NCBI RefSeq assembly: GCF_009914755.1
Contig: NC_060947.1
Strand: one strand, 5' to 3'
DNA: 64,000 nt
From: the human T2T-CHM13v2.0 reference genome, Homo sapiens
Shown: piece by piece, positions 3,190 through 28,781 of the stretch
How the letters are laid out: each line of letters starts with the position of its first letter
Numbering within the stretch: position 1 is the stretch's first letter
Notes under the pieces: generated by a model
The model's input: the letters and a program-made list of their open reading frames with translations, nothing else
What the model was told of the DNA's origin: nothing
Database searches by the model: none
Position numbers and translations under genes: made by a program

Positions 3190-4929
3190 CAGTTATTGCT
3201 GTGTAATAAATTGCCACAAACTCAGCAACTTAAAACACTCATGTATTATCTTGCAGTTTTGTAAATCAGAAGTCCAGAGGGCTCAGATGGGTTCTCTGCT
3301 TAGGGTTTCACAAGGCTGAAGTCAAAGTGTCAGCCAGGCTGGACTCTTACTTGAAAGCTTTGGGGTCAGAATCCACTTCCAAGCTCATCTGGGCTGTAGG
3401 CAGAATCCAGATACTCATGGCTGTAAGTCTGAGGCCTGTTTTCTTGCTGGCTGCTGGCTGCGGGGGGGTCACTCTGGAATGCTACAGGCTACACACGTTT
3501 CTTCTCAAGCAGTCCTCTCCATCTTCAAAGCCAGCAATAGCATACCAAAGTCCCCTTGTGCTACAGATCCATCTAACTCCCTCTTCTGCTACCAGCTGGA
3601 GAAACCCTCTGCTTTTATTATTATTAATAAATTATACTTTAAGTTCTGGGGTACATGTGCAGAAAGTGTTTGTTATATAGGTATACACGTGCCATGGTGG
3701 TTTGCTGCACCCATCAACCCATCATCTACATTAGGTATTTCTCCTAATGCTATCCTTCCCCGAGCCCCCGACCCCCTGACAGGCCCTGGTGTGTGATGTT
3801 CACCTTCCTGTGTCCATGTGTTCTCATTGTTCAATTCCCACTTATGAGTGAGAGCATGCAGTGTTCGGTTTTCTGTTCTTCTGATAGTTTGCTGAGAATG
3901 ATGGTTTCCAGCTTCATCCATGTCCCTGCAAAGGACATGAACTCATCCTTTTTATGACTGCATAGTAGTCCACGGTGTGTATGTGCCATATTTTCTTTAT
4001 CCAGTCTATCATTGATGGGCATTTGGGTTGGTTCCAAGTCTTTGCTATTGTGAACAGTGCTGCAATAAACATATGTGTGCATGTATCTTTATAGTAGAAT
4101 AATTTATAATCCTTTGGGTATATATCCAGTAATGGGATGGCTGGGTCAAATGGTGTTTCTAGTTCTAGATCCCTGAGGAATCGCCACACTGACTTCCACA
4201 ATGGTTGAACTAGTTTACAGTCCCACCAACAGTGTAAAAGTGTTCCTATTTCTCCACATTCTCTCCAGCACCTGTTGTTTCCTGACTTTTTAATGATCGC
4301 CATTCTAACTGGTGTGAGATGATATCTCATTGTGGTTTTGATTTGCATTTCTCTGATGATCAGTGATGATGAGCTTTTTTTTAATATGTCTGTTGGCTGC
4401 ATAAATGTCTTCTTTTGAGAAGTGTCTGTTCATATCCTTCACCCACTTTTTGATGGGGTTGTTCATTTTTTCTTGTAAATTTGTTTAAGTTATTTGTAGA
4501 TTCTGGACATTAGCCCTTTGTCAGATGGATAGATTGCAAAAGTTTTCTCCCATTCTGTAGGTTGCTTGTTCACTCTGATGATAGTTTCTTTTGCTGTGCA
4601 GAAGCTCTTTAGTTTAATTAGAATCATGTTTGTCTATTTTGGCTTTCGTTGCCATTGCTTTTGGTCTTTTAGTCATGAAATCTTAACCCTCTACTTTTGA
4701 AGGGCTCACTTGATTGGGTCAGGCCCAACCAAGTCATCTCCATACCTTTAAGGTCAACTGACTTGGAATTTTCATTATTTCTGTAAAATCTCTTCAGAGC
4801 TGTACCCAGATCAGCATTTAGTTGAATAAACAGGAAACAAAAATTTGGGGGGGGCGTGGTGGGGGATCCATATTTAGAATGCTGCCCATAAAATAAAAAA
4901 GAATTAATATTAGAATGCTGCCTACCATA
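3190..4929 (-). mobile_element. MLT1E-like MaLR LTR split by an L1PA (3190-3616 and 4685-4929)
   Basis: attgctgtgtaataaattgccacaaactcagcaacttaaaac...gaatccacttccaagctc...; ends ttagaatgctgcctaccata. Confidence 0.75.
3617..4684 (-). mobile_element. 5'-truncated L1PA (L1PA6/7-like, with younger-type patches)
   Basis: ORF2 C-terminus in ORFs 3914..4402 and 3831..4082, plus 3' UTR; TSD aaccctct(g/a)ctttt at 3603-3616 and 4685-4698. Confidence 0.92.
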
Positions 4930-5814
4930 CCTCCCTGCAGTTTTTTCTCCACTCGGAAGCTAGTGTGATCCTGTTCAAATGTAAGTGAGATCCTGTCATT
5001 TCTGTACCCACAATCCTCTAGTGGCTCCTCATCTCCTTACCATGTCCAAAGTCAAACTCTTCATCATGCCCCACAAGGCCCTCATGGTCTGGACTGTGCC
5101 CCTTATCACTCTGACTTCTTCTCCTACTTTCTTTCACTTACCCTCCCCCTCACTTGTTTTCCCTCTGGACATACTTGAATGCTCCAAGCACGATCCCACT
5201 TCAGGGCCTTTGTATATGCTGTTTGGTCAGCTTGGGATGACTTTCCCCTTGATAACTACTTACCTTAATATTTCTACTCAATTTTCACCCTCTCACTAAG
5301 GTCTTCTTTGACAACTTTTTTGAAGTTACACCCTACTCCATACTCCCTAAGCCCCCTTCCCGCTTCAGTTTCTTCCAGATCCTTTATTACTCTCTAACAT
5401 AAAATATGTAAATACATAAAATATAGTTTACACTTTTATCTTGTTTATTGCCTTTTTCTTAGAATGTAAGACCCACAAGGGACTTTGTTCACTGATGTAT
5501 CCCTAGCACCTAGTACAATGTCTAGAACAGAGCAAGCACTCAATACATATGTGTTAAATGAATGAATCAGTGAGCTTGCCCAAAGTCACACACACTAGTA
5601 GTAAGTGACAGAGTTGGAATTTGAACATGAAACACATACCACCTCCCTGTAGCTTAGAACCCAATGGTAAGGGTGAGGATAAACAAAGTTAAGACTATAG
5701 TAAAAAATGCTCTAAGGAAAATGCTGTAGAGGAGATGCCAACCGAAGATTCTAGAATTTTCAAGGATAGAGAAGTCATACCTGGCTGTGGTGATCACAGA
5801 TGAGACAGAAGGGG

Positions 5815-27900: not shown

Positions 27901-28781
27901 ATACCATTCAGGACATAGGCATGGGCAAGGACTTCATGTCTAAAACACCAAAAGCAATGGCAACAAAAGCCAAAATTGACAAATGGGATCTAATTAAACT
28001 AAAGAGCTTCTGCACAGCAAAAGAAACCACCATCAGAGTGAACAAGCAACCTACAGAATGGGAGAAAACTTTTGCAATCTACTCATCTGACAAAGGGCTA
28101 ATATCCAGAATCTACAATGAACTCAAACAAATTTACAAGAAAAAAACAAACAACCCCATCAAGACAAGCGGCTGAAGGATATGAACAGACACCTCTTAAA
28201 AGAAGACATTTATGCAGCCAAAAGACATGAAAAAATACTCATCATCGCTGGCCATCAGAGAAATGCAAATCAAAACCACAATGAGATATCATCCCACACC
28301 AGTTAGAATAGCGATCATTAAAAAGTCAGGAAACAACAGGTGCTGGAGAGGATGTGGAGAAATAGGAACATTTTTACACTGTTGGTGGGACTGTAAACCA
28401 GTTCAACCATTGTGGAAGTCAGTGTGGTGATTCCTCAAGGATCTAGAACTAGAAATACCATTTGACCCAGCCATCCCATTACTGGGTATATACCCAAAGG
28501 ATTATAAAACATGCTGCTATAAAGACACATGCACACGTATGTTTATTGTGGCACTATTCACAACAGCAAAGACTTGGAACCAACCCAAATGTCCAACAAT
28601 GATAGACTGGATTAAGAAAATGTGGCACATATACACCATGGAATCCTATGCAGCCATAAAAAAGGATGAGTTCATGTCCTTTGTAGGGACATGGATGAAG
28701 CTGGAAACCATCATTCTTAGCAAACTATCACAAGGACAAAAAACCAAACACTGCAAGTTCTCACTCATAGGTGGGAATTGA
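24980..28781 (+). pseudogene. L1 ORF2p (endonuclease / reverse transcriptase), disrupted
   Basis: Start codon mutated (cata AAG acagga); endonuclease in 25007..26062; RT motif FADD in 26967..28175; several frameshifts. Confidence 0.92.

What the first reader, a model, noticed from the sequence alone, without database searches (positions are those of the whole stretch)
4531..28162. Local gene-conversion network among inverted L1PA copies of different ages
Three independent insertions share aacaAgcaacctacagaatgggagaaaaCttttgcaatcta (VNKQ..EKTF): 4.53-4.58 kb minus, 12.77-12.81 kb minus and 28.03-28.08 kb plus. The 35.1 kb copy and the consensus as I recall it give VNRQ..EKIF. The 12.7 and 28.0 kb copies are identical over about 140 bp (28024-28162) and also share acaaaGaaatgg (TKKW rather than TNKW; about 13495 and 27345). 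These are non-CpG changes in copies with different TSDs and different 3' UTR subfamilies. The pattern suggests repeated sequence exchange between inverted neighbours 15-24 kb apart, with the L1PA4 copy as a possible hub.
Basis: partly seen in the sequence, partly recalled or inferred. Interest (0 to 1): 0.75.

Follow-up and report, generated by a model that had tools for sequence, protein, structure and literature searches.

The report
Neighbouring LINE-1 copies overwrote each other
Three separately inserted LINE-1 repeats lying within 24 kb on the human X chromosome share short stretches of rare sequence, likely because DNA repair copied pieces from one neighbour into another, a process already known for other repeats that would blur how such repeats are dated.

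Summary
Observation confirmed. Three L1 copies of different age (A 3.6-4.7 kb minus, B 11.9-13.7 kb minus, C 22.9-29.0 kb plus; each with its own intact TSD) share a two-site haplotype found in 7 of 4,944 genome copies. Three of the seven are these neighbours; the other four fit independence (2.2 expected), so it is no hidden subfamily. New: the old copy A carries a 183-bp young-type tract that fits B as donor, not C, and B and C share another 2% allele. Corrections: the TKKW allele is common (11 of 100); the 139-bp identity alone is unremarkable (2 of 64 unlinked pairs); A and B are direct repeats; B is at least as good a hub as C. Best reading: several short non-allelic gene-conversion events between neighbours (0.86), a process known for Alu and LTRs. 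No orthologues or reads were available, so dating, direction and an assembly artefact remain untested. Similar tracts occur in 2 of 7 other near pairs, 36 and 89 kb apart, which suggests a general, long-range process.

The parts
3617..4684 (-). Copy A: 5'-truncated L1PA of old type (L1PA6/7 boundary; label recalled), with two foreign tracts
   Evidence: TSD 14 bp with 1 mismatch at 3603-3616 and 4685-4698, read
11850..13671 (-). Copy B: 5'-truncated L1PA of young type (L1PA3-like; label recalled); middle copy that shares tracts with both A and C
   Evidence: TSD 16 bp with 1 mismatch at 11834-11849 and 13672-13687, read
22867..28998 (+). Copy C: full-length L1PA of intermediate age (L1PA4/5-like; label recalled), ORFs broken
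   Evidence: perfect 13-bp TSD at 22854-22866 and 28999-29011, read
30405..36063 (+). Copy D: old L1PA (L1PA7-like; label recalled) that has lost its 5' end; lacks the A+C haplotype; membership of the network inconclusive
4530..4580 (-). Tract 1 in A: 51 bp identical in A, B and C, with the derived A (4566) and C (4542); old-type alleles on both sides
12762..12812 (-). Tract 1 in B (derived bases at 12798 and 12774)
28031..28081 (+). Tract 1 in C (derived bases at 28045 and 28069)
12681..12896 (-). Tract 2 in B: 216 bp with one difference from C, including the 139-bp identical run 12681-12819; probably received from C
27947..28162 (+). Tract 2 in C
4173..4355 (-). Tract 3 in A: at least 183 bp of young-type sequence inside an old-type copy; 2 differences from B
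12415..12597 (-). Probable donor segment of tract 3 in B
27860..27860 (+). A allele shared by C and B (12983); 88 of 4,428 young-context copies carry it
28645..28645 (+). C allele shared by C and D (35710) inside a 51-bp identical run; 15 of 4,863 copies; possible fourth link

Best explanation
Three independently inserted L1 copies share short tracts of rare or wrong-age sequence, likely because germline DNA breaks in one copy were repaired by copying from a neighbouring copy without crossover (non-allelic gene conversion), on at least three occasions. Shown: independent insertions, the rarity and clustering of the haplotype, the mosaic of A, and no net inversion. Inferred: B donated the 183-bp tract to A (direct repeats, 8 kb apart); C probably donated the 139-216 bp tract to B (inverted, 15 kb apart); the 25-51 bp A+C tract passed between A and B or C in a direction that cannot be told; all events involving B postdate its insertion. 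The repair pathway (strand invasion with synthesis, or template switching at a fork) is assumed, not tested. No function is implied.
For: Haplotype in 7 of 4,944 copies, 3 within 24 kb; the 4 others match the 2.2 expected from independence (Poisson P 0.19) and are old-type around the motif. Chance that two given neighbours both carry it: 6.6e-7; rough genome-wide expectation of such a triple 0.003-0.03 (assumed 1,000-10,000 triples). A is old-type at the diagnostic sites flanking a run of young-type sites and moves from the old clade (98/95) to the young clade (90/91) between segments. A differs from B at 2 of 183 sites in the tract and 91 of 849 outside it (boundaries chosen after the fact); permutation P for the 104-bp A-B run is 0.0004. 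None of the 13 natural intermediates that cover the sites has the T at C-position 28419 or the G at 28438 that A and B share. B and C also share a 2% allele; at 27860, 28028 and 28078 B has C's base where B's closest relatives E and L040 differ. TSD pairs are intact. Similar tracts occur at other near pairs.
Against: One assembly only; no reads, second genome or ape orthologue. The 139-bp run alone is weak (permutation P 0.011; 2 of 64 unlinked pairs). Counting panel-absent shared alleles does not single these pairs out: each has 2, and 32 of 484 unlinked pairs have 2 or more. The donor of tract 3 need not be B: unlinked L046 fits almost as well (5 vs 4 differences in 232 bp) and groups with B in the tract tree, where A sits unresolved among young copies. 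A natural intermediate lineage exists and explains part of what first looked converted in A. B keeps its own allele at 27901, between two shared sites, so the B-C sharing is patchy.
Confidence: 0.86

Rival explanations
1. Assembly or polishing error: reads from one copy overwrote bases in the others.
For: The 51-bp tract is perfectly identical in all three copies. No independent sequence was available.
Against: The copies are only 89-94% identical. The longer tracts contain private differences (2 in 183 bp, 1 in 216 bp). Three different tracts with different partners would need three separate errors. That this reference was built from accurate long reads is recalled, not tested.
Confidence: 0.04
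2. RNA- or cDNA-templated conversion from the full-length copy C, which has a 5' UTR promoter.
For: C is full-length and probably donated tract 2 to B.
Against: It cannot explain tract 3, whose donor has an allele that C lacks; B has no 5' end. A diffusible template gives no reason for neighbours to be chosen.
Confidence: 0.04
3. Inversion and re-inversion between B and C by crossover, leaving exchanged or converted patches.
For: B and C are inverted and 93.5% identical over 1.8 kb; L1-mediated inversions are known (PMC9675761, PMC3961182; passages).
Against: TSD pairs match, so there is no net inversion. At the diagnostic sites inspected, C did not carry B-type alleles where B carried C-type ones. 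It does not account for A.
Confidence: 0.03
4. Chance homoplasy plus common sub-lineage alleles, or a hidden L1 source lineage.
For: TKKW (11 of 100) and the T at 28289 (6 of 100) are common and partly linked; an intermediate lineage exists.
Against: Only 4 copies outside the window carry A+C, as independence predicts, and A, B and C fall in different age classes over the rest of their length.
Confidence: 0.03

Closest known systems
Non-allelic gene conversion between neighbouring Alu elements (Zhi 2007; Aleshin and Zhi 2010, seen only as cited in PMC8230782 and PMC6598467, passages)
   Same: Neighbours share non-diagnostic mutations; partial conversion makes old/young hybrids; young-to-old is the commoner direction; hotspots are reported especially on sex chromosomes.
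   Different: Here the elements are L1PA, one locus has a three-way link, and the distances (8, 15, possibly 24 kb here; 36 and 89 kb at two other loci) reach beyond the roughly 10 kb reported for Alu.
Repair of a break in a chromosomal LINE by gene conversion with other LINEs (Tremblay et al. 2000, seen only as cited in PMC3055243, passages)
   Same: Same proposed mechanism and element class.
   Different: That was an induced break in mouse cells; this is a natural record in the human reference, inferred from sequence.
Ectopic gene conversion among human LTRs (PMC4921805; abstract and outline)
   Same: Patchwork elements made from several donors.
   Different: LTRs, shown by Y-chromosome polymorphism, with donors on other chromosomes; here the probable donors are neighbours.
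Recombinant full-length young L1s in pangenome assemblies (PMC13192797; passages)
   Same: L1 mosaics between lineages exist: 35 of 2,267 screened were removed as recombinants.
   Different: In the passages read they were filtered out, not traced to neighbouring donors, and older L1PA copies were not the subject.
TE-mediated rearrangements (PMC9675761; passages)
   Same: Homologous recombination between nearby L1PA copies.
   Different: Those are crossovers that delete, duplicate or invert; here flanks and TSDs are unchanged.

Membership tests
Non-allelic gene conversion between transposable elements | Partners are independent insertions, not products of one duplication | tested here: met
   Distinct intact TSDs; homology ends at the L1 ends; different age classes.
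Non-allelic gene conversion between transposable elements | A bounded tract of shared derived or wrong-subfamily alleles that conflicts with the rest of the element | tested here: met
   Tracts 1 and 3; haplotype frequency 7 of 4,944.
Non-allelic gene conversion between transposable elements | Non-reciprocal transfer with unchanged flanks | tested here: met
   All three copies hold the alleles; TSD pairs unswapped; B keeps its own alleles across tract 3.
Non-allelic gene conversion between transposable elements | Short tracts, up to a few hundred bases (PMC3961182, passage) | tested here: met
   25-51 bp, 139-216 bp and at least 183 bp.
Non-allelic gene conversion between transposable elements | Pre-conversion state and direction shown in orthologous loci | not testable with these tools
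   No primate relatives are held for this genome.
Non-allelic gene conversion between transposable elements | Confirmed in a second data source (assembly, individual or reads) | not testable with these tools
   One assembly only.
Non-allelic gene conversion between transposable elements | Donor is the neighbour rather than a distant copy | tested here: inconclusive
   Met for tract 1 (3 of 7 carriers are neighbours); for tract 3 unlinked L046 fits nearly as well as B.
Hidden L1PA subfamily or shared source element | Many dispersed copies share the diagnostic haplotype and the rest of the sequence | tested here: not met
   4 other carriers, 2.2 expected by independence, different backgrounds.
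Segmental duplication or palindrome with arm-to-arm conversion | Homology extends into the flanks and is uniformly high | tested here: not met
   Self-BLAST hits end at the L1 ends, at 89-94% identity.
L1-mediated inversion | TSDs of the two partners are swapped; chimeric elements at both ends | tested here: not met

The most novel reading that the evidence does not exclude
Neighbour-to-neighbour gene conversion among L1PA copies is a genome-wide process that reaches tens of kilobases (36 and 89 kb in two inverted pairs found here), far beyond the roughly 10 kb reported for Alu, and this Xq26 cluster is a multi-partner hotspot of it. L1 fossils would then not age independently, and rare-allele sharing between neighbours would give a map of ectopic repair contacts in the germline.
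Probability: 0.5. Interest if true: 0.6.

Novelty: new member of a known kind. Interest (0 to 1): 0.4.

Why it matters
The locus itself is intergenic and probably neutral. It matters as a clean natural record of ectopic repair between L1 copies that are 6-11% diverged. If such exchange is common, subfamily labels, divergence-based ages and mutation rates drawn from L1PA remnants (as in PMC5237266, passages) are slightly biased, and young sequence can be written into old copies and the reverse. The test used here, clustering of rare alleles among neighbours, can be run genome-wide on complete assemblies at once.

Tried and rejected
TKKW as evidence: common, 11 of 100. The ACC allele at 28028 as a rare marker: 3 of 13 young unlinked copies have it, so it serves only for direction. 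The T at 28289 shared by A, B and C: 6 of 100, weak support only. The 139-bp identity as evidence by itself: 2 of 64 unlinked pairs reach it, in the same conserved region. A's tract extending to C-position 28472: rejected, since 28450 and 28472 are native to an intermediate lineage. Whole-length scans of C against D and E showed no long tract; the one low P, D-E 84 bp (0.003 among 15 pairs), was not followed up. D as a member: 2 panel-absent shared alleles against about 0.6 expected; inconclusive. Other L1PA copies within 100 kb on each side that cover the site (E, F) lack A+C. A link to X-linked acrogigantism breakpoints near GPR101: the main-text passages of PMC4888203 give no breakpoint coordinates; its supplement, which I did not open, may bear on this. 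Aleshin and Zhi 2010, Tremblay 2000 and Myers 2002 were not held.

Full report
Question. The hub's annotation places the window at T2T-CHM13 chrX:135,408,001-135,472,000, without genes.

Anatomy. Self-BLAST and alignment show four L1PA copies that cover the site: A (3617-4684, minus), B (11850-13671, minus), C (22867-28998, plus, full length, ORFs broken) and D (about 30405-36063, plus, 5' end lost). A, B and C each have their own TSD, intact on both sides, and homology ends at the element ends. They are independent insertions, and no net inversion has happened between B and C. A and B are direct repeats 8 kb apart; B-C (15 kb) and A-C (24 kb) are inverted. Against 20 unlinked chromosome-1 copies chosen from the first 100 of 4,944 matches, B is young-type at 48 of 51 age-diagnostic sites, C at 47, and A and D are old-type. 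Subfamily names (B L1PA3-like, C L1PA4/5-like, A L1PA6/7 boundary, D L1PA7-like) are recalled; no consensus library was at hand.

The haplotype. The 41-mer occurs 4 times in the genome, 3 times here. With a 34-mer, 4,944 copies match with either allele, 113 have A, 103 have C and 7 have both. Solved ORF2p chains have the other alleles, R and I. Outside the window 4 carriers are seen and 2.2 expected if the sites are independent (P 0.19); the four are old-type around the motif. So there is no hidden subfamily. The chance that two given neighbours both carry it is 6.6e-7, and a rough correction for all neighbour triples and site pairs in the genome gives 0.003-0.03 expected cases (the number of triples is assumed). 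In A the identical stretch is 51 bp, with old-type alleles on both sides.

TKKW is present in 11 of the first 100 listed copies. The 139-bp B-C identity has permutation P 0.011, and 2 of 64 unlinked pairs of 4-7% divergence reach that length. A count of shared alleles absent from a 34-copy panel gives 2 for each of A-B, A-C and B-C, which 32 of 484 unlinked pairs also reach. The signal lies in the same two adjacent alleles being in all three neighbours.

A is young-type over a run of diagnostic sites in the middle of an old-type element. A genome search showed that a natural intermediate lineage exists, so I fetched 14 such copies. They explain the last two sites of the run, but none of the 13 that cover the sites has T at C-position 28419 or G at 28438. 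The converted part is therefore at least A 4173-4355. There A differs from B at 2 of 183 sites, from E at 6 and from C at 7, against 91 of 849 from B outside. The 104-bp A-B identical run has P 0.0004. A falls in the old clade for the 3' segment (98/95) and in the young clade for the tract (90/91). Direction is young to old. B fits as donor (it has both the G at 28438, absent from C, and the 6% T at 28289, absent from E), but unlinked L046 fits nearly as well, so B is preferred on proximity.

B and C. They differ at 1 of 216 sites in tract 2 and 93 of 1,578 outside. Both carry A at 27860, found in 88 of 4,428 young-context copies. At 27860, 28028 and 28078 B has C's base where its closest relatives E and L040 do not, which points to C as donor; B keeps its own base at 27901, so the transfer was patchy or repeated. 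Divergence within the tracts (95% limits 0.01-2.6% and 0.13-4.0%) fits events within roughly the last 20 million years at a recalled rate of about 1e-9 per site per year; L1PA5 is dated 20.4 million years in PMC5237266 (passage). D shares a 0.3% allele with C (15 of 4,863) inside a 51-bp identical run, but two such alleles in 1.8 kb are not beyond chance.

Mechanism. Most likely, breaks in one copy were repaired by invading a nearby copy and copying 25-250 bases without crossover, at least three times. The tracts, their bounds and the intact flanks are shown; the pathway, order and most directions are inferred. Rivals are an assembly error, cDNA-templated conversion from C, inversion toggling and chance, each at 0.03-0.04.

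Is the locus special? The rare-allele lists (13 and 3 rows unlisted) held 7 other pairs within 100 kb, after I dropped the window and one pair on an acrocentric arm. Expected by chance: 1.0-2.9, from the pair density of 100 chromosome-1 copies scaled one- to threefold (P 0.0001-0.03). I fetched 711 bp of all 14 copies. Two pairs look like conversion tracts: contig 14, 89 kb apart, inverted, with 164 identical bases holding three rare alleles; and contig 4, 36 kb apart, inverted, with 104 identical bases and four panel-absent alleles. Three pairs had one extra shared allele and two had none. Flanks were not fetched, and regional mutation rate was not controlled.

Comparison with what is known. 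Neighbour conversion is established for Alu, within about 10 kb and with hotspots on sex chromosomes (PMC8230782, PMC6598467; passages; primary papers not held), and for LTRs (PMC4921805; abstract). LINE breaks can be repaired by conversion with other LINEs (cited in PMC3055243; passage), and recombinant young L1s are filtered from pangenome sets (PMC13192797; passages). Eight searches (and a ninth, 60) listed no paper on conversion between neighbouring L1PA copies or on this locus; the library lacks most subscription journals, so this is weak evidence of novelty.

Verdict. Real feature, known kind of process, new instance; interest 0.4. The wider reading, a long-range genome-wide process among L1s, has probability about 0.5 and is directly testable.

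Noticed in passing
window 30189-30394: Two tandem 98-bp copies (99% alike) of an inverted, 86% identical copy of 29001-29074 sit at the truncated 5' end of D, after a cut-off LTR-like fragment (label recalled). This looks like an old deletion repaired with a templated insertion; the copy resembles the site before C inserted. D has no matching 5' TSD.
   Followed up: partly
G000:C14:29273176 and 29362623 (L078, L079): Inverted L1PA pair 89 kb apart with a 164-bp identical tract holding three rare alleles.
   Followed up: partly
G000:C4:74486151 and 74522665 (L068, L069): Inverted L1PA pair 36 kb apart sharing four panel-absent alleles, two inside a 104-bp identical run.
   Followed up: partly
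chrX about 135,383,160-135,389,330 (window -24842 to -18666), copy E: Full-length young L1PA, same orientation as B and its closest relative in the 3' tree; B and E share four panel-absent alleles. Either sub-lineage markers (the panel is poor in this type) or further exchange.
   Followed up: partly
G000:C1:49.26-49.76 Mb: Four of the six copies with T at C-position 28289 among 100 ordered chromosome-1 copies lie within 8 consecutive rows (permutation P 0.011); four TKKW carriers lie in the same region.
   Followed up: partly
L028 (G000:C6:114.05 Mb): Old-type L1 whose 3' part switches to young type at about the homologous position, with the old sequence resuming after the young poly(A): a young insertion into an old copy, or a chimera.
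   Followed up: no
window 39686-40390: Short L1PA 3' fragments in a rearranged order, with part of the 3' end repeated.
   Followed up: no
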